Assembly (NCBI GenBank): GCA_021781955.1 | Contig: JAJXVV010000001.1 | Location: 26,688 to 90,687 of the forward strand | From: a bacterium | GTDB taxonomy: Bacteria; Patescibacteriota; Minisyncoccia; Phycocordibacterales; UBA2100 | DNA length: 64,000 nt | Direction of reading: 5' to 3' | Program-made: the position numbers and the translations under genes | In this document: piece after piece, positions 1 through 52,853 of the stretch | Position numbering within the stretch: the stretch's first letter is position 1 | Layout: each line of letters begins with the position of its first letter | The notes under the pieces: generated by a model | What the model saw: the letters and a program-made list of their open reading frames with translations, nothing else | Database searches by the model: none | Told to the model about the DNA's origin: nothing

Positions 1-26
1 TCTCTGCGGAGGTAGGCCGTGACTGC

Positions 27-446
27 TCACAGCTGACCCACTTTTTTCTCCGGATAGAGTTTTCGAGTTTCCTCGACCTCTGCGGACGTCTTCGCGTCCG
101 CGGCGGAATAGATTTTCGCCATTGCTTCGATCTTTCCATCGCGGACCGCGTCCGCAGTCGTGCGATCGTCGATAATGTCGTCAATCGCCTCGAGCTGCCG
201 GCGCTCTGCTTTACGAGCGGCGACGAGCTTGGAGTACGCATCGACGCACGGCACTCTTTTTTCCGGGGCCTGCATTGGGCAGACCTTGTCCCGCTCGGCG
301 CGCAGTGTCACGACGCCGTCGATCTTGATCTTGACGAAGTCTGCAACCTTCGGCCCGATCAGCAGCCACTGATACGGTTTTTCCGCGGCAGCGGCTCCGC
401 CTGTGAGCAATGCGACAAGTATCGCCGTTAGCAAAATACGCGTCAT
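27..446 (-). CDS. hypothetical secreted protein (N-terminal signal peptide)
   Basis: 139-aa ORF. Hydrophobic N-terminus MTRILLTAILVALLTGGAAAAE reads as a signal peptide. No recognisable family. Confidence 0.45.
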   Translation of the reverse strand: MTRILLTAILVALLTGGAAAAEKPYQWLLIGPKVADFVKIKIDGVVTLRAERDKVCPMQAPEKRVPCVDAYSKLVAARKAERRQLEAIDDIIDDRTTADAVRDGKIEAMAKIYSAADAKTSAEVEETRKLYPEKKVGQL

Positions 447-585
447 GACACACCTCTGTTTCCGCTATTACCCCGCAAAAGCGCGAGGTGAGCTAGGAAC
501 ATTATACCATGTATACCTAGTAATATGCAAATCCCCCGTGTGACTCATTTGTCCACGTTTATGCAAAAAACTGCCTTACAGGAGC

Positions 586-3078
586 GTGGAAATTGCTATT
601 ATTCCTGTAATGAAAAGGGGATCGAGTCGGGGTTTATCATTGATCGCCATCGTCGGACTTGTAGCGGTAATATCGGCTACTCAATTTTGGTCTCGATACA
701 CGGATATTCTCATTTCGACTCGGGTCACGCAGCTTGCCGCGACCGCAAGCACCGGGACGCTTACACCCCAAAACGCGGTGCTGAGCATCGACATAACCAA
801 TCTCGCTGAGGGGACAGACGCTAGCTGCCCTCAGGCAACCGCAAGCGCCGATTACCGGTCCGGTGAATCACAACAGTATTGTGCTGACTCGATGCCAACG
901 CCTTCAACACAATGCGTCACGAACTACGGGGGTACAACAGCCTCAATCGTACCAAAATCACAAGTAGCCGCTGGGGCAGCCGCCACCTGCAAAACACCAA
1001 TGCGGCAAAATCTTTGTCTCAAAACCTGTACATATCATGTGCAGCAATCGGGAGTGAACTTTACGGTCAATGGAACCTGCAGTAAACAAAATACCTGTCG
1101 AGGTTTAACGTATAAAGACAGCACAGGGACGCACAGTCTACAGAATGTTGCTTCGACCGGTGGATTGGTTGGCCGGCCAACGGCTCCCGGCGGTGCTGGG
1201 CCCCTTCCGCCCGTCCCACCTGCTAGCGGCGCTCCTGGGGATACTACCGGCGGAGCAAGTACGGGAAATACCAACCAGACAAATACCGGTACAGCATCTG
1301 GAAACGGTTCTTCTGTCTCGCCCACGAACCCCGTCCTCACACCACCAGGTGGAACGGCTGGGCTGGGAGCAGGGGGGGCTTCGCCGGCCCCGGGGAACGG
1401 CGCTGTTGCCGGCCGCACGGGCAGTGGGACAGTCGGCGGTGGCGGTACGGACGTTTTGAATTCTGGCACCTACCAGCCGGTCAATAACTTGCAAAACCCG
1501 GTCACAACGACGCCAGTACCGGCTTCGCCGGCTATCAATCCAGGTATCACGACAAAGCCGGTCACAGCCACTCCCACCGCCAGCCCGGTGGTCGCTACGA
1601 CGCCGATCTCCGGAGGGCCCATCGTGAGCGCGTCTCGCCCGGCCGCTTCATCGCCTGGCTCATACAGCGTCCCGAATACCTACGCTAACCCCTCCTCTTC
1701 GTTCTCTCCATCGTATCCATCCGGCTCTCCCAATGCGAACTCATCGATCAACTCATTCGCGGCGCCGGGCATAAATTCCAGCGGTGGAGGCGCCTTCGCA
1801 TCGTTCTTCTCGGGCGTCGTGGCAGGACTCCTCTCGACGCCGGTGCAGACCGTTTCCGACGTGGTCAACACCATCGTCTCGCCGACACCTGCCCCGTCCC
1901 GCATCATCGAGACGCCAGGCTTCAGCCAGCCGCAATCCGCGTCCCCGCAACAGCAGCAGACCCCGAGCATCTTCCTCGTCGAACCAGGACAGCAAGGCGC
2001 GCTGAGAACCATGCAGATCTCGCAGCCGATCGATATCTTCGCCGCTACACCCGCGCAGGGCGGCCCCGCAGGGAACCCGAACGCCGCTATCAATGGCATC
2101 GGTGCCGCCGACCAACAGGGCAACACGCCAAACGTCACCTCCCTCCTCGACCTCTCGTCGCAAGCGCCGCAGATACTTCCGATGTTGCCTCCGTCGGATA
2201 ATCCCGCAACGTACGCCGTCACCCAGGCAACGTCCGGCCTATCGCCTGTCCCAAGCGTCTCGCAAGAGCTCGTGCCTCAAACCGGGTCCGGCACGATGAA
2301 CACGCCGACCGCAAGTCCAATAAATCTGCTCGCCCCGAGCCTGGGTACCCTCGTCTCGGGTCTCGCCAAAGGCTGGACGGGCGGCAACACGCTGTACGAA
2401 GACGCCGCCGCGCTCGCGCAGACGCAGTCCAACCGCAACGAGATCGACGCGCAGATCCAGGCGCTCAACATGCTCGATGCGGCAGGTCTGTGCGGCCAGG
2501 ATTGCACGAATGCGCTCGCGTCGCTGCAGAGCAGTCGTTCGGTGACGCAAGCGCGTGTCGATGCGCTCACCAAGGCGGTCGCCAACGACCAGACCGGCGC
2601 GTCTTCGACCACCGCCCTTCCCTCGCCCGCTACCCAGATGGGGCAGATCGTTTCCGATATCGTGAACACGATGCAAGAGGTCGTGAGCTCGGGCAATAGC
2701 GGGACCGCCGCGCCCGGCGCTTCCAGCAGCGGCAATGCTGCCGCGCAGAGCGGCGCGATCCAGTATCCCGGCGTACCGGTCCTGCCGCTTCCGGGCAAGG
2801 TAGTGGCCATTCTCCCTGCCGAGACCGCATCGTCCTCGTACACGTACGCGTACCAGAACGAGACCTCGGTGCCGGTCGTGCAGGTGGCGAGCGATAATGG
2901 CACAGGCATGGCGGGAACCGGCAGCCAGAACCTCTTGAGCGGCGACGGCATCGGTAAACTCATCCTGAATGCGTGGAACTTCATCACGAACTTCTTCATG
3001 CCGCAGCCGCAAGCGGCTGCCGCGGCTCCGGCACCCTCGTGCTCGCTCCTCCTCTCGCTCTTCGGCGGCTGCCGTTAG
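586..3078 (+). CDS. large secreted/cell-surface protein with N-terminal signal anchor, Cys-rich module and long Pro/Thr/Gly/Ser low-complexity tracts
   Basis: 830-aa ORF downstream of an AT-rich promoter-like region (positions 480-585). N-terminal hydrophobic segment RGLSLIAIVGLVAVISA. About 12 Cys in the first 200 aa, then extended P/T/S/G-rich regions. Function unknown. Confidence 0.55.
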   Translation: MEIAIIPVMKRGSSRGLSLIAIVGLVAVISATQFWSRYTDILISTRVTQLAATASTGTLTPQNAVLSIDITNLAEGTDASCPQATASADYRSGESQQYCADSMPTPSTQCVTNYGGTTASIVPKSQVAAGAAATCKTPMRQNLCLKTCTYHVQQSGVNFTVNGTCSKQNTCRGLTYKDSTGTHSLQNVASTGGLVGRPTAPGGAGPLPPVPPASGAPGDTTGGASTGNTNQTNTGTASGNGSSVSPTNPVLTPPGGTAGLGAGGASPAPGNGAVAGRTGSGTVGGGGTDVLNSGTYQPVNNLQNPVTTTPVPASPAINPGITTKPVTATPTASPVVATTPISGGPIVSASRPAASSPGSYSVPNTYANPSSSFSPSYPSGSPNANSSINSFAAPGINSSGGGAFASFFSGVVAGLLSTPVQTVSDVVNTIVSPTPAPSRIIETPGFSQPQSASPQQQQTPSIFLVEPGQQGALRTMQISQPIDIFAATPAQGGPAGNPNAAINGIGAADQQGNTPNVTSLLDLSSQAPQILPMLPPSDNPATYAVTQATSGLSPVPSVSQELVPQTGSGTMNTPTASPINLLAPSLGTLVSGLAKGWTGGNTLYEDAAALAQTQSNRNEIDAQIQALNMLDAAGLCGQDCTNALASLQSSRSVTQARVDALTKAVANDQTGASSTTALPSPATQMGQIVSDIVNTMQEVVSSGNSGTAAPGASSSGNAAAQSGAIQYPGVPVLPLPGKVVAILPAETASSSYTYAYQNETSVPVVQVASDNGTGMAGTGSQNLLSGDGIGKLILNAWNFITNFFMPQPQAAAAAPAPSCSLLLSLFGGCR

Positions 3079-3157
3079 CCGATCTTTCGCGGCTTTTCAT
3101 TTGCATGAAAAGGCGGCCGTGTACGGCCGCCTTTGTGTCTGGTGTGCGAATGGGCGT

Positions 3158-3715
3158 TCATTTCCGGACGATCGACTGGAACAACGCAGGTGGCGAGATA
3201 CGTCGCAGCCACCATTCGTATTCGTAATCATTGCGCCGTGTGGCCTCGGCGATCATGCAGCGGGCGACGCGCGGAGACTTAACCGCTTTTGCATCGTTCA
3301 CTTCGATCGCTTTCACGACATTCGCGGCGATCATGCAGCCGAGACGATCGGCATCTCGCCGGATCTGCGCGTCATCGGTCTGCAGGAAGTAATCGAGCTG
3401 GGCAAAAACATCGTACGTGGATTCCGGGCCTTGCAATGACCAGTTCATGAACCCCTGATAGCTCGGGGTTAATCCGTTGTCCATGCAACGTACGGAGTTC
3501 ACATTGACTTCTGCGTCTGGCAGGTGAGCGACCGCGCGTATCTCGCTTCCAAACGCCTTTATCCGACCGTCGATCTGATACGCTTCCACCTCATCGGGGC
3601 TCACGAGACGCACCTGCCCGCACTCGACGGCACGCACTACGCTCGGCACTGCCGTGAGCAGCAGCATAGCGAGAAAACATATGATCCAGCGCATCTGTGC
3701 CTCCTCTTTTTGCAC
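3158..3715 (-). CDS. hypothetical secreted protein
   Basis: 185-aa ORF with an N-terminal signal-like segment (WIICFLAMLLLTAVPSVVRA). No recognisable domain. Confidence 0.45.
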   Translation of the reverse strand: MQKEEAQMRWIICFLAMLLLTAVPSVVRAVECGQVRLVSPDEVEAYQIDGRIKAFGSEIRAVAHLPDAEVNVNSVRCMDNGLTPSYQGFMNWSLQGPESTYDVFAQLDYFLQTDDAQIRRDADRLGCMIAANVVKAIEVNDAKAVKSPRVARCMIAEATRRNDYEYEWWLRRISPPALFQSIVRK

Positions 3716-3825
3716 GCTTTCTTTATTGCAAAGTGCAAAAGAACATCATTTACGAATCCTACTATCGTTAAATCCAACCCGCCTGTCAACCGCCATGACC
3801 TCAAAGCTGATCCCCCAGAGGACGG

Positions 3826-3882
3826 TCCTCTGTACAAAACTGTGGATAACACAGAGGACCGTCCTCTGGGGAAAATATCCTC
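3826..3882. repeat. inverted pair of 20/21-bp palindromic mini-elements (CCCAGAGGACSGTCCTCTGGG) separated by 17 bp
   Basis: CCCCAGAGGACGGTCCTCTG ... 17 bp ... CAGAGGACCGTCCTCTGGGG. Each arm is itself palindromic. The same 21-mer recurs inside rarA at 52567-52592. Confidence 0.8.
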
Positions 3883-3892
3883 GCAGAAACAC

Positions 3893-3917
3893 AAAACCCG
3901 CCTTGCGGCGGGTTTTG
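3893..3917 (-). terminator. rho-independent terminator (duplicate of the tuf terminator)
   Basis: Minus-strand CAAAACCCGCCGCAAGGCGGGTTTTG: GC-rich stem followed by a U-tract. Confidence 0.6.
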
Positions 3918-3940
3918 CTGCGATGCTTCGTTGGGAAGGG

Positions 3941-4147
3941 CTACGCGACGATCTTCGTCACGACGCCGGCGCCGACGGTCTTGCCACCCTCGCGGATGGC
4001 GAAACGCATCTGCTCTTCCATGGCGATCGGGCCCTGCAACTTGACCTTGAAGGTCACGGTGTCGCCCGGCATCACCATCTCCACGCCCTCCTTGAGGGTC
4101 ACCTCGCCGGTGACATCGGTGGTGCGGATGTAGAACTGCGGCTTGTA
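3941..4147 (-). pseudogene. tuf': truncated EF-Tu C-terminal fragment (tuf 3' remnant)
   Basis: Encodes the same C-terminal 68 aa as full-length EF-Tu (...[42 protein letters not shown]). Similarity stops abruptly at 4148, so no N-terminal part is present. Confidence 0.85.
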
Positions 4148-4200
4148 AGCACTAATGATTCCATGCTACAAAGAAGTCTGAGTAGGCAAAGGAGGTACGG

Positions 4201-4776
4201 ATGCGTAAGCATGCTCTTTTCCATGGTCGTTTTCAACCACCGTCAATCGCACACTTCGAAACACTTGGAACGATCCTGCAGAAGTGGGAACTGGTCACCA
4301 TCGGTGTTGTGTATGCAATTCCAAAACCAGCATGGCTGGACCCAAAATGGAACTCGTACGTAGAAGAAGTTCTGCAAACATACACCCCTGCTAGAAATCC
4401 GTTTTCCGCTCATGAACGAGTGCGCATGTGGAACGAATGCATCCGCCATTCCAACCTGACGGAACGCGTTCAATGCGTAGCGGCGCCAATTCCTTACTTT
4501 GACGAAAGCTTCAGTGAAGAATTCCCGCCTGAGGAATACGATTTCGTCAAACCAGAAGCTGAGAAACACGAGACCTTGGATTTATTGCGCGAACAAACCA
4601 CAGCGCAGATTCTAAATCGTTCGCTTTTTACGGTCCGACCGCAATGGAAGTTGCACGTGACCGAAATGCGCAATCTTGTGTCGCAAGGAGCACAGTGGCA
4701 CAAGTTCCTTGCGCCCGGAATCGGCGATGTGTTCTCGGAACTCAATGGCAACGAAAGGATGAGGGACCCTATATGA
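4201..4776 (+). CDS. cytidylyltransferase-like nucleotidyltransferase, archaeal NadM/NMNAT-like with divergent HxGH motif
   Basis: N-terminal FHGRFQPPSIAH resembles the GRFQPFHxGH signature of NadM-type NMN adenylyltransferases, though the HxGH is degenerate (SIAH). C-terminal TEMRNLV resembles the ISxTxxR motif. The gene sits in a visibly lower-GC region. Confidence 0.5.
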   Translation: MRKHALFHGRFQPPSIAHFETLGTILQKWELVTIGVVYAIPKPAWLDPKWNSYVEEVLQTYTPARNPFSAHERVRMWNECIRHSNLTERVQCVAAPIPYFDESFSEEFPPEEYDFVKPEAEKHETLDLLREQTTAQILNRSLFTVRPQWKLHVTEMRNLVSQGAQWHKFLAPGIGDVFSELNGNERMRDPI

Positions 4777-5215
4777 GGGTCCTTCTTTTTAGATCGGACA
4801 ATATGTCACGATCGCGCAAATTCTTAGGTAAATGCGAAAGAGAAAAATACCGAACTTCAGACACCTCTTTTTCGTCTGCTTTTAATTCTCCGGAAAGAGG
4901 CTTACATATAAATGGCAGACCAACAATCCACACCTCGTCCCCATTATCGTACGTATCTTTCATCGTATACACGCCAAGTAACTCATGCACCTTAACGATC
5001 AACCCGGTCTCTTCGAATACCTCTCGCTCGGCTGCTTGTTGCGGCGTCTCGTATAATTCGAGATACCCTGCGGGCAATGCCCATTGACCTTTCTTCTCGA
5101 TACGATGTATGAGCAACACTTCCTTCCTTTCGTTAAAAATAATTCCTGCCGCTGCGGTCAGAATCAAGGGCGCAGTGCCCACCTTGCTTCGTATCCACTG
5201 AATGTAATTATCCAT
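4769..5215 (-). CDS. NUDIX hydrolase
   Basis: Nudix box GYLELYETPQQAAEREVFEETGL matches GX5EX7REUXEEXGU. Convergent with, and overlapping, the nucleotidyltransferase gene. Confidence 0.8.
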   Translation of the reverse strand: MDNYIQWIRSKVGTAPLILTAAAGIIFNERKEVLLIHRIEKKGQWALPAGYLELYETPQQAAEREVFEETGLIVKVHELLGVYTMKDTYDNGDEVWIVGLPFICKPLSGELKADEKEVSEVRYFSLSHLPKNLRDRDILSDLKRRTLI

Positions 5216-5371
5216 AATATGCCGCTGTGAGAAGGATTGTCGCTATGTGTGTATTCATTTGAATCCCGCGACATTGTCTGCCTGCGAACAGACGCGGCCG
5301 ACACGCTTTGGTGGTCATGCGCGAATGTGTACACGTAAGGTACACGATGTCAACAAGTAGCATCGTAACAC

Positions 5372-5396
5372 AAAACCCGCCTTGCGGCGGGTTTTG
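5372..5396 (-). terminator. rho-independent terminator of tuf
   Basis: Hairpin CCCGCCGCAAGGCGGG plus U-tract on the minus strand immediately after the tuf stop. Confidence 0.65.
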
Positions 5397-5419
5397 CTGC
5401 GATGCTTCGTTGGGAAGGG

Positions 5420-6619
<1,200 letters not shown>

Positions 6620-50076: not shown

Positions 50077-50988
50077 TTACTGCCGCCGCTTTCCGTGGAA
50101 CGCCCTGTGCACCTCGCGCAGGTGTTTGTCGGTAACATGCGTGTACACCTGCGTGGTCGCGATATTGGCATGGCCGAGGAGCGCCTGCACTGAGCGCAGG
50201 TCGGCGCCGTTTTCGAGGAGATCGGTCGCGAAACTGTGTCGAATGACGTGCGGGGTCACCTTGCGAGTGATGCCTGCCTTGATCGCGTAACGCTTCACGA
50301 GCCGCTCTACCGAGCGCGGCGTAATGCGCGAAAGATCCTTACCTTTCGGCCCGCCGAGACCGTACGATACGAAGAGAGCCTCGCTCATGTCGCCGCGCGC
50401 CTTGAGATATGCGCTGATGGAAGCTTTCGCTGAAGGGGAGATGAAGACGACGCGCACCTTATCGCCCTTGCCGCGCACGGAAAATTCGTCGCGCGAGAGA
50501 TCGAGGTCCGCATTGAGCGAGCAAAGCTCTGAGACGCGCAGGCCGGTCGAGAAAAGGAGCTCGAGCATCGCTTTGTCGCGAAGCGATATCAGATCATCGC
50601 CTTTCGGCATGGCCATGAGGCGCTCAAGTTCGTTGGCAGTGATGAGATCGAGGTCGCGTCCGCCCACCTTGGCAAGCTCGATGCGCTCCGGAGAGAGCGA
50701 CTCGATGCCTTGTTTGCGCAGATATTTGAGGAACGCGCGCAATGCAATGAGGTAGTAGTTCTGTGTCTTTCTCTTCATGCCGCCCGCAGTGCCGGGCTGC
50801 CGATTGAGCCACAGGCGGAACTCGCGCACCATTGGCTCGGTGAGTTTTTGCGGCGAGGTGACCTTGGAGCGGGCGAGGAATCGCGTGAGATAACGGTCGT
50901 AGTTCTCGACAGTCTTGACGCTGCGGCCTTTTTCTATCTCAAGATACTCGAGGAACTGCGTTTTCAACGCTTTGAGGTCGGCCGCCAT
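50077..50988 (-). CDS. xerC: tyrosine site-specific recombinase XerC/XerD
   Basis: N-terminal SAM-like domain. C-terminal R…HxxR…Y with HVIRHSFATDLLENGADLRSVQALLGHANIATTQVYTHV. Confidence 0.9.
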   Translation of the reverse strand: MAADLKALKTQFLEYLEIEKGRSVKTVENYDRYLTRFLARSKVTSPQKLTEPMVREFRLWLNRQPGTAGGMKRKTQNYYLIALRAFLKYLRKQGIESLSPERIELAKVGGRDLDLITANELERLMAMPKGDDLISLRDKAMLELLFSTGLRVSELCSLNADLDLSRDEFSVRGKGDKVRVVFISPSAKASISAYLKARGDMSEALFVSYGLGGPKGKDLSRITPRSVERLVKRYAIKAGITRKVTPHVIRHSFATDLLENGADLRSVQALLGHANIATTQVYTHVTDKHLREVHRAFHGKRRQ

Positions 50989-51686: not shown

Positions 51687-52853
51687 CTATTTCAAATATT
51701 TTTTCTTCTTGAGCTTGTCCGGCAAATACGACTCTTTGTCGTACAGCTCATAACCTTTGTGATATCCGAGCTCCTTCATGAGCTTCGTGGGTGCGTTGCG
51801 GACTTTCATCGGGATGGGGAGGTTGCCGTGCTTCAGCGCGTCGGCGAGCGCCTCAAAATAGGCGTCGTAGCTCTCGCGGCTCTTCTTGCAGGTAGCGAGG
51901 TAAGCCGCGCCGTGCGCGAGGTTGATCTGCGCTTCGGGGTAGCCGACCGTCTCGCACGCGCGGAAGACCGCGTTGGCAACGACGAGCGCGGTCGGCTGCG
52001 CCAGGCCGATATCCTCGCTCGCGAATATAACCATGCGCCGAGCGATAAAGAGCGGATCTTCACCCGCGCCTACCATGCGCGCCAAATAATAGAGCGCCGC
52101 ATCAGGCTGGCTTGCCCGCAAGCTTTTGATGAACGCAGATATCGTGTTGTGGTGCTCTTCGCCTTTCTTGTCATAGCGAAGGTACCTCGATTGCACCGCC
52201 TCTTTGAGCGTGCCAAGCGTGGCCTTGCCGTAGAGTTTGTTTGCGGTCTCGAGCACGGTGATGGCTTGACGCGCATCGCCGACTGCCATGCGCACGAGCC
52301 AGCTACGCGCGTCTTTCGGCACCTTGATCTTCGTGCGGGCGATGATCTTCGCCATGTCGTCGTCGGTGTGTCCATTGAGCACGAAAACGCGGCAGCGTGA
52401 CAGGAGGGGAGCGATGATTTCGAACGAAGGGTTTTCGGTGGTCGCGCCGATGAGCGTGAGGCCGCCGCGCTCGACGAAGGGGAGCAGAAAATCCTGCTGC
52501 GCCTTGTTGAAGCGGTGGATCTCGTCTACGAAGAGAACCTTCGGCTTCTCGAATCCGAGCGTGGGGGACCCAGAGGACCGTCCTCTGGGTTCTGCAGGAC
52601 TTCCGATGATTTTCTTGATATCCTCTTTGCTCGCGTCAACTGCCGAGAGTTCGTGGGACTCCGCGCCGAGCGCAGAGGCGTAGATACGCGCGAGCGTCGT
52701 CTTGCCGCTCCCCGGCGGACCCCATAAGATGAGTGAGAGCAACTCCTTCTTCTCTACCGCCACTCGCAATGGCTTGCCCGCCCCGATGAGATGTTCTTGC
52801 CCTACGAACTCATCGAGCGAACGCGGACGGATGGCCGATGCAAGTGGTTCCAT
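51687..52853 (-). CDS. rarA: replication-associated recombination protein A (AAA+ ATPase RarA/MgsA)
   Basis: Walker A GPPGSGKTTLARIYA, Walker B VLFVDEIHRFNKAQQD, sensor and C-terminal MgsA domains. Contains an approximately 8-aa in-frame insertion encoded by the palindromic element at 52567-52592. Confidence 0.85.
   Translation of the reverse strand: MEPLASAIRPRSLDEFVGQEHLIGAGKPLRVAVEKKELLSLILWGPPGSGKTTLARIYASALGAESHELSAVDASKEDIKKIIGSPAEPRGRSSGSPTLGFEKPKVLFVDEIHRFNKAQQDFLLPFVERGGLTLIGATTENPSFEIIAPLLSRCRVFVLNGHTDDDMAKIIARTKIKVPKDARSWLVRMAVGDARQAITVLETANKLYGKATLGTLKEAVQSRYLRYDKKGEEHHNTISAFIKSLRASQPDAALYYLARMVGAGEDPLFIARRMVIFASEDIGLAQPTALVVANAVFRACETVGYPEAQINLAHGAAYLATCKKSRESYDAYFEALADALKHGNLPIPMKVRNAPTKLMKELGYHKGYELYDKESYLPDKLKKKKYLK
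52567..52592. repeat. single copy of palindromic mini-element CCCAGAGGACCGTCCTCTGGG inserted in-frame within rarA
   Basis: Identical 21-mer to the arms at 3826-3882. Encodes the extra …EPRGRSSG… loop between the Walker A-proximal helix and Walker B, absent from canonical RarA. Confidence 0.75.

What the first reader, a model, noticed from the sequence alone, without database searches (positions are those of the whole stretch)
3826..3882. 21-bp palindromic mini-element (CCCAGAGGACSGTCCTCTGGG) occurs as an inverted pair here and as an in-frame insertion within rarA (52567-52592)
The same perfectly palindromic 21-mer appears three times. Two copies form an inverted pair with a 17-bp spacer in the intergenic region beside the tuf-fragment junction. 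One copy sits inside the rarA coding sequence, where it adds about 7-8 residues (…EPRGRSSG…) to a loop that is shorter in canonical RarA/MgsA. The reading frame and all ATPase motifs are preserved. In-frame proliferation of short palindromic elements into conserved genes is known for Rickettsia RPEs and for Neisseria Correia elements. Finding it here suggests an active or recently active REP/MITE-like element family in this lineage.
Basis: seen in the sequence. Interest (0 to 1): 0.55.

Follow-up and report, generated by a model that had tools for sequence, protein, structure and literature searches.

The report
REP-like palindromes, one inside rarA
A short DNA palindrome occurs as a hairpin-forming pair between genes and as an exact seven-codon insertion in the replication gene rarA of a Kaiserbacteria (CPR) genome, and it belongs to a palindrome family that flanks REP-type tyrosine transposase genes in other CPR bacteria.

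Summary
Three copies share a perfect 17-nt core, CAGAGGAC-S-GTCCTCTG. Two form a 59-nt hairpin-forming doublet at 3813-3871. One is a perfect 21-mer at 52569-52589, exactly seven codons (PRGRSSG) of rarA. Shuffled sequence gives none.

The organism is a Candidatus Kaiserbacteria (CPR). None of 119 RarA homologues (77-82% identity) carries this peptide. A syntenic relative is shorter by exactly seven codons at that point. The inserted residues model as a disordered loop between Walker A and Walker B.

The same 17-mer is multi-copy in Vogelbacteria and Saccharibacteria genomes. In those two and a Nomurabacteria genome it flanks a Y1_Tnp transposase-like gene whose closest curated family is REP-associated tyrosine transposase (RAYT).

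Caveats: no RAYT gene lies in about 82 kb of this genome, only three copies were seen there, and the canonical GTAG tag is absent.

Extra finding: the same rarA loop carries other hairpin repeats (20-24-nt arms) in at least five other Kaiserbacteria lineages.

Intragenic REPs in replication and repair genes are already documented, so this is a new variant of a known kind. Interest is moderate.

The parts
3813..3833 (.). REP unit 1 (CCCCAGAGGACGGTCCTCTGT). The 17-nt perfect core is 3816-3832, with central G on the + strand.
3834..3850 (.). 17-nt spacer (ACAAAACTGTGGATAAC) between the two inverted units. It forms the loop of the long hairpin.
3851..3871 (.). REP unit 2 (ACAGAGGACCGTCCTCTGGGG). 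It is the exact reverse complement of unit 1, with central C on the + strand.
3813..3871 (.). REPIN-like doublet of 59 nt. It folds as one long hairpin: ssDNA -27.7 kcal/mol (z -10.5), RNA -46 to -48 kcal/mol. On the - strand it lies between the terminator of the tuf 3' fragment (3893-3916) and a promoter-like site (3789->3761) of the next gene (3158-3694).
   Evidence: no Rfam family reaches its gathering score
52569..52589 (-). REP singlet: a perfect 21-mer (23-nt palindrome 52568-52590) that makes up exactly 7 in-frame codons, PRGRSSG, residues 89-95 of RarA.
   Evidence: The 21-mer has no stop codon in any of its six frames.
51687..52853 (-). rarA (replication-associated recombination protein A, 388 aa, identical to database protein P0001). 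It is the host gene of the in-frame REP.
3888..4148 (-). Context only. This is a duplicated tuf 3' end plus terminator, identical to 5375-5635. Its left boundary is 17 nt from the REP doublet.
   Evidence: confirmed in assembly L063

Best explanation
The 17-21-nt odd palindrome is a REP-type element, meaning the ssDNA hairpin recognised by an IS200/IS605-related HUH tyrosine transposase of the RAYT kind. It belongs to a family found across CPR/Patescibacteria.

The intergenic pair at 3813-3871 is a REPIN-like doublet: two units in inverted orientation that fold into one long hairpin. It sits in the classical REP position, downstream of one gene's terminator and upstream of the next promoter. 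The rarA copy is a single unit.

Why the rarA copy survived is inferred. The unit is 21 nt (3 x 7) and free of stop codons in all frames, and it landed in a disordered surface loop between Walker A and Walker B. RarA therefore stays intact and gains seven residues.

What is shown: the anatomy, the dispersal to two loci 48 kb apart, the absence of the insert from relatives, and the association of the identical core with RAYT-like genes in three other CPR genomes.

What is inferred: that a RAYT-like enzyme moved these copies by ssDNA cut-and-paste or copy at the replication fork, either from elsewhere in this genome or in an ancestor, and that the insert is neutral for RarA.
For: 1. Non-chance repeat: 3 copies against 0 expected, with 21/21 complementary arms.

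2. The genome-contig scan for the 17-mer returned 49 loci. Singletons in unrelated phyla fit my chance estimate of roughly 35-70 sites. The clusters do not: 8 copies in Vogelbacteria JACPIA01, 5 in Saccharibacteria CAZGAF01, and 2 each in two further bins. I estimate about 1e-4 expected per 1-Mb genome.

3. REPtron anatomy in three other genomes.
- L025 5176-5856(-) has palindromes at 5182-5198 and 5872-5888.
- L030 has a gene with palindromes at 3990-4006 and 4642-4658.
- L022 5841-6572 has three variant units upstream and the 17-mer at its 3' end.

4. The L025 and L030 proteins hit Pfam Y1_Tnp above the cutoff (29.8 and 36.1 bits against 23). The best NCBIfam family is REP-associated tyrosine transposase, at 42.8 and 55.6 bits, below its cutoff of 80. 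A profile of the family hits E. coli TnpA_REP (4ER8) first. That alignment pairs the HUH motif (PNHFH with PEHMH) and the tyrosine motif (YIhlNPiK with YIYINPVK).

5. The family has at least 7,893 members at E<=1e-10, named 'transposase' in Patescibacteria records.

6. Insertion status. The loop is disordered in the model. The unit is stop-free in six frames.

7. In-frame copies of the same family occur in other genes. There is a doublet inside the L030 RAYT CDS and a unit inside the L022 RAYT CDS.

8. Literature: REP dimers, REPtrons and intragenic REPs concentrated in replication and repair genes are documented (PMC3733652). REPINs are described in PMC3116915.
Against: - No Y1_Tnp/RAYT gene was found in the 64-kb window by tblastn, nor in the roughly 8.5 kb and 10 kb fetched beyond each end.
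- Only 3 copies at 2 loci were seen in about 82 kb. The source genome is not in the searched genome collection, so genome-wide copy number is unknown.
- The canonical GTAG (or terminal CGTC) tag of described REP superfamilies is absent from the flanks.
- The RAYT-like proteins fall below NCBIfam's equivalog cutoff, and the PDB match is weak (E 0.14).
- The CCC...GGG-flanked variant is almost absent from JGI metagenomes (4 hits, none informative).
- Transposition itself was not observed.
Confidence: 0.7

Rival explanations
1. The palindrome is the dyad-symmetric operator of a dimeric DNA-binding regulator conserved in CPR. On this view the copies form a regulon, not a mobile family.
For: - The site has 10-1-10 dyad symmetry.
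- The pair lies about 24 nt upstream of a promoter-like TTGACA-17-GATAGT on the - strand.
- Three Vogelbacteria copies sit shortly upstream of a TATAAT.
- Two copies sit just upstream of uvrA in L010.
- The core is conserved across CPR classes, which is unusual for REPs.
Against: - One copy lies inside a coding sequence as a clean 7-codon insertion that relatives lack.
- The motif brackets transposase-like genes on both sides in three genomes.
- The contexts are heterogeneous. L031 is 3 nt after a stop codon, L018 lies between convergent genes, and some copies lie inside CDSs.
- No regulator gene is consistently adjacent.
Confidence: 0.1
2. The rarA hairpin was generated locally, for example by replication template-switching that turns a native quasi-palindrome into a palindrome. 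The intergenic copies would be related by gene conversion rather than transposition.
For: - The short-loop homologue P0026/L069 has a native CCAAG-N9-CTTGG at the site.
- Five other lineages carry different hairpins at the same loop, and their arms were not found elsewhere in the 4-21 kb fetched around each gene.
- In P0011/L066 the left arm may encode the native RGTL motif.
Against: - The window's 17-mer is identical at a second locus 48 kb away.
- The same 17-mer sits next to RAYT-like genes in other classes.
- L068's rarA unit shares the AAGGACCGTCCTT core with the REPs that flank the Nomurabacteria RAYT.
- L067's insert is two odd palindromes in inverted orientation, the same REPIN layout as the intergenic pair.
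Confidence: 0.1
3. The elements act mainly as RNA structures, such as a 3'-end stabiliser, terminator or translational pause. They would be kept by selection whatever their origin. This does not exclude a REP origin.
For: - The hairpins are very stable as RNA: -46 to -48 kcal/mol for the pair and -17.5 kcal/mol in rarA mRNA.
- The pair lies just downstream of a gene fragment's terminator.
- 22-24-nt arms stay perfect inside rarA of other lineages, which hints at maintenance.
Against: - No U-tract follows the pair on either strand, and the terminator scan picks up only a trivial 5-bp stem in the spacer.
- No Rfam family reaches its gathering score.
- The gene upstream of the pair is a truncated tuf duplicate.
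- Most RarA homologues lack any hairpin.
Confidence: 0.07

Closest known systems
REP / REPIN-RAYT systems (E. coli, Pseudomonas, Stenotrophomonas; PMC3116915, PMC3337134, PMC3479197, PMC3733652)
   Same: - Short G+C-rich palindromes, found as singlets and as inverted doublets that fold into one long hairpin.
- Located between unidirectional genes.
- In other CPR genomes the identical core flanks single genes of the Y1_Tnp/RAYT type ('REPtrons').
- No target-site duplication.
   Different: - No GTAG (or terminal CGTC) tag.
- The unit is a near-perfect odd palindrome with at most a 3-nt loop.
- Copy number is very low here (3 in ~82 kb) rather than tens to hundreds per genome.
- The proteins are ~215-245 aa and score below the curated RAYT equivalog cutoff.
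- The core is conserved across CPR classes whose RAYT-like proteins are only 33-50% identical.
- The host is a ~1-Mb CPR genome.
Intragenic REPs in replication and repair genes (Di Nocera et al. 2013, PMC3733652)
   Same: [quoted passage not shown]
- Different REPs sit at about the same site of recB in two Xanthomonas species.
   Different: - The host gene here is rarA, which did not appear in the passages I read.
- The lineage is CPR.
- The same loop carries distinct hairpins in at least six Kaiserbacteria lineages, a more pronounced hot spot.
Rickettsia palindromic elements (RPE)
   Same: Palindromic repeats inserted in-frame into conserved protein genes without destroying them.
   Different: - RPEs are ~100-150 bp and add 30-50 residues.
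- There is no sequence relationship.
- No dedicated transposase is known for RPEs (from my own knowledge and PMC3733652).
IS200/IS605 insertion sequences and their palindrome-associated miniature derivatives; Correia/MITE elements
   Same: - Y1 HUH transposase that recognises subterminal ssDNA hairpins.
- L030 has direct 39-nt repeats containing the hairpin at both gene ends, like IS200 LE/RE ends.
- Non-autonomous short copies.
   Different: - The tyrosine motif is the RAYT-type YIHxNP. A classical IS200-type TnpA was seen separately in L056.
- Correia elements and other MITEs have terminal inverted repeats plus target duplications and are >100 bp. Neither applies here.

Membership tests
REP/REPIN-RAYT | Short (about 20-40 nt) palindrome able to form a stem-loop in ssDNA or RNA | tested here: met
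   The unit has a 10-bp stem. ssDNA energy is -10.6 to -12.2 kcal/mol, z about -3.4.
REP/REPIN-RAYT | Doublets of two units in inverted orientation separated by a short spacer (REPIN) | tested here: met
   3813-3833 and 3851-3871 are 100% complementary with a 17-nt spacer. The long hairpin has z -10.5.
REP/REPIN-RAYT | Dispersed, multi-copy within the genome (tens to hundreds) | tested here: inconclusive
   Three copies at 2 loci 48 kb apart in ~82 kb examined. The source genome is absent from genome contigs. Other CPR genomes hold 5-8 exact copies.
REP/REPIN-RAYT | Conserved GTAG (or CGTC) tetranucleotide at one foot of the hairpin | tested here: not met
   The flanks are CCC/GGG here, ACCA/TGGT in Vogelbacteria, CATG/CAT in Saccharibacteria and CGTA/TACG in bin E14. 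CGTC occurs only at the apex, on one strand.
REP/REPIN-RAYT | A RAYT gene flanked by the same REPs (REPtron) in the same genome | not testable with these tools
   None was found in the window or in the flanks fetched beyond it. The rest of the genome could not be retrieved.
REP/REPIN-RAYT | Association of the same palindrome with RAYT-type genes in any genome | tested here: met
   L025, L030 and L022: Y1_Tnp-type genes bracketed by the 17-mer or its AAGGACSGTCCTT variant.
RAYT (TnpA_REP) protein family, for the CPR proteins linked to the motif | HUH motif and catalytic Tyr in a Y1_Tnp fold, of the RAYT-type rather than the IS200-type | tested here: inconclusive
   Pfam Y1_Tnp is above cutoff. 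NCBIfam REP_Tyr_transpos is the best hit but scores 42.8/55.6 bits against a cutoff of 80. The best PDB hit is 4ER8 TnpA_REP at E 0.14, with PNHFH and YIHLNP aligned.
Intragenic REP (sensu Di Nocera 2013) | The REP lies wholly inside a real conserved ORF, in frame, and is absent from homologues | tested here: met
MITE / Correia element | Terminal inverted repeats plus a target-site duplication, length >100 bp | tested here: not met
   No direct repeat flanks either locus. The elements are 21 and 59 nt.
Rickettsia palindromic element | About 100-150-bp element homologous to the RPE families | tested here: not met
   The length is 21 nt. Sequence similarity to RPE families was not tested.
Known structured RNA (Rfam) | Match at or above a family's gathering score | tested here: not met
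   Only sub-threshold generic hairpin hits to miRNA precursors.

The most novel reading that the evidence does not exclude
The loop of RarA between helix 76-83 and the Walker B strand would be a recurrent landing or amplification site for REPIN-type hairpins across Kaiserbacteria. These hairpins are kept with perfect 20-24-nt arms inside a replication-fork gene. That would imply one of two things. Either a RAYT-like enzyme targets ssDNA at this locus, or the hairpin is selected for a function such as control of rarA expression or a fork-associated signal. The REP core would also be unusually conserved across CPR classes because it coevolves with a very large CPR-specific RAYT-like family.
Probability: 0.2. 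Interest if true: 0.7.

Novelty: new variant of a known kind. Interest (0 to 1): 0.5.

Why it matters
REP/REPIN-RAYT systems have been characterised mostly in Proteobacteria. I found no paper in the held library describing them in CPR/Patescibacteria.

This work ties a concrete palindrome to a very large CPR family of Y1 transposase-like proteins, with at least 7,893 relatives. It also shows these palindromes entering coding sequence in-frame in tiny, streamlined genomes. For annotators, extra residues in CPR proteins can therefore be repeat-derived.

The recurrent hairpins at one loop of rarA give a tractable natural system. It can be used to ask whether intragenic REPs in replication and repair genes (PMC3733652) reflect targeting, tolerance or function.

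Tried and rejected
- Exact-protein look-ups of the 408-aa rarA ORF and of tuf found nothing. The true 388-aa RarA did work.
- The JGI metagenome scan for the 19-mer CCCAGAGGACSGTCCTCTG gave only 4 loci. Two are unrelated terminator hairpins and two lie in G+C-rich contigs that I did not examine further. None shows a cluster of copies, so the scan was uninformative for this lineage.
- The viral-contig scan gave one unrelated hit.
- tblastn of the CPR RAYT-like proteins against the window found no homologue.
- phmmer of one RAYT-like protein against PDB found nothing meaningful. The family profile gave only a weak 4ER8 hit.
- REP-core peptides were sought in 120 RAYT-like proteins. Only the three query proteins have them, so most family members probably use other or extragenic REPs.
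- The NJ tree of RarA is star-like and cannot separate one ancient insertion with many losses from many insertions.
- A DNA-uptake-sequence reading was considered and rejected, because copy number is orders of magnitude too low.
- An intrinsic-terminator reading was rejected because there is no U-tract.
- The hit inside Saccharibacteria Tgt (LPEDRPL) looks like native conserved sequence, not an insertion.
- I could walk only 10 kb beyond each window end, because look-ups are restricted to window-encoded proteins.

Full report
**Observation.**
The motif search finds three sites and none in 100 shuffles. They are 3814-3834 and 3850-3870 in an intergenic region, and 52569-52589.

The repeat finder defines the intergenic structure. 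The arms 3813-3833 (CCCCAGAGGACGGTCCTCTGT) and 3851-3871 (ACAGAGGACCGTCCTCTGGGG) are 21 nt and 100% complementary, separated by 17 nt.

Only the rarA copy is the perfect 21-mer. The element shared perfectly by all three is the 17-nt core CAGAGGAC-S-GTCCTCTG. Because the palindrome has odd length, the central G or C gives each unit a polarity, and the two intergenic units are inverted.

No degenerate relics exist in the window. Both loci are reproduced in independent assemblies from other samples.

**Organism and host gene.**
RarA homologues identify a Candidatus Kaiserbacteria (Paceibacterota, CPR) genome. The real rarA is 51687-52853 on the - strand. It encodes 388 aa and is identical to database protein P0001, which is alone in its 90%-identity cluster.

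On the coding strand the palindrome reads CCC AGA GGA CGG TCC TCT GGG = PRGRSSG, residues 89-95. It lies between Walker A (G45-T52) and Walker B (D110 E111), and every invariant residue of the family is intact.

**Is it an insertion?**
- Among the 120 RarA sequences (the window's own plus 119 homologues at 77-82% identity), 68 have a short loop here. None of the 119 homologues has the REP peptide.
- The syntenic homologue P0004/L057 reads GDRRGEK-TLGFEKPK. The window reads GSPAE[PRGRSSG]SP-TLGFEKPK. The difference is exactly seven codons.
- An AlphaFold2 model built on 80 homologues has pLDDT around 90 over most of the N-terminal ATPase domain. Residues 87-100 fall below 50 and form a coil between helix 76-83 and the Walker B strand 105-110.
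- The 21-mer has no stop codon in any of its six frames. It can therefore sit in any ORF without truncating it.

**What the palindrome is.**
A scan of 185,579 species genomes for the 17-mer returned 49 loci. The source genome is not in that collection.

Singletons in unrelated phyla number about what I estimate by chance (roughly 35-70 sites). Many are terminator stems or conserved coding sequence.

Four CPR assemblies stand out:
- Vogelbacteria JACPIA01, 8 copies.
- Saccharibacteria CAZGAF01, 5 copies.
- Saccharibacteria CAYHEP01, 2 copies.
- Bin E14, 2 copies.

I expect about 1e-4 copies per 1-Mb genome by chance.

In three genomes the palindrome brackets a transposase-like gene:
- L025 (Vogelbacteria): a 226-aa gene at 5176-5856(-), with palindromes at 5182-5198 and 5872-5888.
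- L030 (Saccharibacteria): a gene of about 204 aa, with palindromes at 3990-4006 and 4642-4658. It also has an in-frame doublet inside its own CDS.
- L022 (Nomurabacteria): a 243-aa homologue with three tandem variant units (GCAAAGGACSGTCCTTTGC) upstream, one unit in-frame inside the CDS, and the 17-mer at its 3' end.

The L025 and L030 proteins hit Pfam Y1_Tnp above the cutoff. Their best NCBIfam model is REP-associated tyrosine transposase, below its equivalog cutoff.

A family profile finds E. coli TnpA_REP (4ER8) as its best, though weak, solved relative. The HUH and YIxxNP motifs align.

The family has at least 7,893 relatives, labelled 'transposase' in Patescibacteria records.

A gene of this type flanked by the palindrome is the 'REPtron' hallmark (PMC3733652). 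An inverted doublet that folds into one hairpin is the REPIN architecture (PMC3116915, PMC3337134).

**Position and structure of the pair.**
As ssDNA the pair folds at -27.7 kcal/mol (z -10.5). On the - strand it sits between the terminator of a truncated tuf duplicate and a promoter-like TTGACA-17-GATAGT. This is the usual REP position between unidirectional genes. No Rfam family reaches its gathering score.

**Limits.**
- No RAYT-like gene lies in the window or in the roughly 8.5 and 10 kb fetched beyond its ends, and no further copies occur there.
- Neither a GTAG nor a terminal CGTC tag is present.
- The CCC/GGG-flanked variant is nearly absent from JGI metagenomes.
- Activity in this lineage is therefore inferred. 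The inference rests only on the perfection of the three copies and the absence of decayed ones.

**Unexpected extension.**
I fetched rarA DNA for seven other Kaiserbacteria lineages.

The two short-loop genes are unstructured at this site (z -0.7 and +0.9). All five long-loop genes carry hairpin-forming inverted repeats at the same site:
- L067: two 17-nt odd palindromes, CAAAGGTCGGACCTTTG and CAAAGGTCCGACCTTTG, in inverted orientation. The arms are 22 nt and perfect (z -8.1). This is the same layout as the window's intergenic doublet.
- L066: 24-nt perfect arms (z -9.2).
- L065: 20-nt arms (z -8.1).
- L068 and L056: degenerate doublets (z -2.6 and -1.8). The L068 unit AAGGACCGTCCTT is identical in core to the REPs upstream of the Nomurabacteria RAYT.

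Insert-bearing RarAs are scattered in an admittedly weak NJ tree. Their arms were not found elsewhere in the 4-21 kb available around each gene.

This loop is thus a hot spot for REPIN-like hairpins. Whether that reflects recurrent insertion, one old insertion with loss, or local palindrome growth from the native CCAAG-N9-CTTGG cannot be settled here.

**Comparison with the known.**
Di Nocera et al. (PMC3733652) already reported intragenic REPs. [quoted passage not shown]

The present case is therefore a variant of a known phenomenon in a new lineage. It differs in having an untagged palindrome, a divergent RAYT-like family, an unusually conserved core, and a pronounced rarA hot spot. Rickettsia RPEs and Correia elements are behavioural analogies only.

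**Verdict.**
- Best explanation: a REP/REPIN-type element linked to CPR RAYT-like transposases (confidence 0.7).
- That the rarA copy is a lineage-specific insertion is better supported, at about 0.85.
- Interest is moderate (0.5).

Noticed in passing
window 3888-4148 and 5375-5635: The 3' end of tuf plus its terminator is duplicated exactly (~260 bp). The two copies bracket a 1.2-kb insert that carries a cytidylyltransferase-like gene (4201-4776) and a NUDIX gene (4769-5215). The REP doublet lies 17 nt from the left repeat boundary. Several assemblies break inside this repeat.
   Followed up: partly
window 1-5400, plus L062: tuf and the S10 (rpsJ) ribosomal operon, usually adjacent, are separated here by ~12 kb. 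This stretch holds lineage-specific genes for secreted or low-complexity proteins and a HATPase_c protein. The REP doublet sits in this variable stretch.
   Followed up: no
L030 4120-4161 and L022 6038-6060: The RAYT-like genes themselves carry in-frame copies of their own palindrome. Saccharibacteria L030 has a doublet, GCAGAGGACGGTCCTCT-acgg-AGAGGACCGTCCTCTGC. Nomurabacteria L022 has a single unit. Both lie in the same N-terminal region of the protein.
   Followed up: partly
L040 6515-6531 and L041 3458-3474 (Saccharibacteria CAYHEP01): Perfect 17-mers lie inside a Tgt gene, at the conserved LPEDRPL motif, and inside a FemAB-like gene (QPQRTVL), with no length change. Two such hits in one genome are unlikely by chance. 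They suggest conversion of REP-compatible native codons, or selection for the motif.
   Followed up: no
L010 37-79: Two tandem, same-orientation copies of the 17-mer lie about 20 nt upstream of a uvrA start codon. The contig is 2.9 kb and labelled Acidobacteria, which may be a mis-binning.
   Followed up: no
L002, L013, L016 (Vogelbacteria): In three copies the palindrome is followed by the same ~40-nt sequence (tggtaaataacctttatttatcaacaacgaggctaagcct). The repeated unit there is therefore longer than the palindrome. Other copies precede a TATAAT box by 12-14 nt.
   Followed up: no
L056 5756-6290: A classical IS200-type TnpA (151 aa, YVQNQ tyrosine motif) lies 4 kb from rarA in another Kaiserbacteria genome. 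It has its own flanking hairpins, CTCCGCAGCTCTGCTGCGGGG and CCTCGCAGCTCTGCTGCGAGG, which are unrelated to that genome's rarA hairpin.
   Followed up: partly
window 50077-50988 and syntenic loci L054-L057, L065, L067: An XerC/D-type tyrosine recombinase gene lies downstream of rarA, directly or one or two small genes away, in the Kaiserbacteria loci examined. This is probably housekeeping dif recombination, not a mobile-element integrase.
   Followed up: no
L028 3433 and 3700 (Oscillospiraceae MAG): Two copies of the core lie 267 nt apart in a non-CPR genome: ACAGAGGACGGTCCTCTGTGT and ACAAAGGACGGTCCTCTGTGT. The family may therefore not be restricted to CPR.
   Followed up: no
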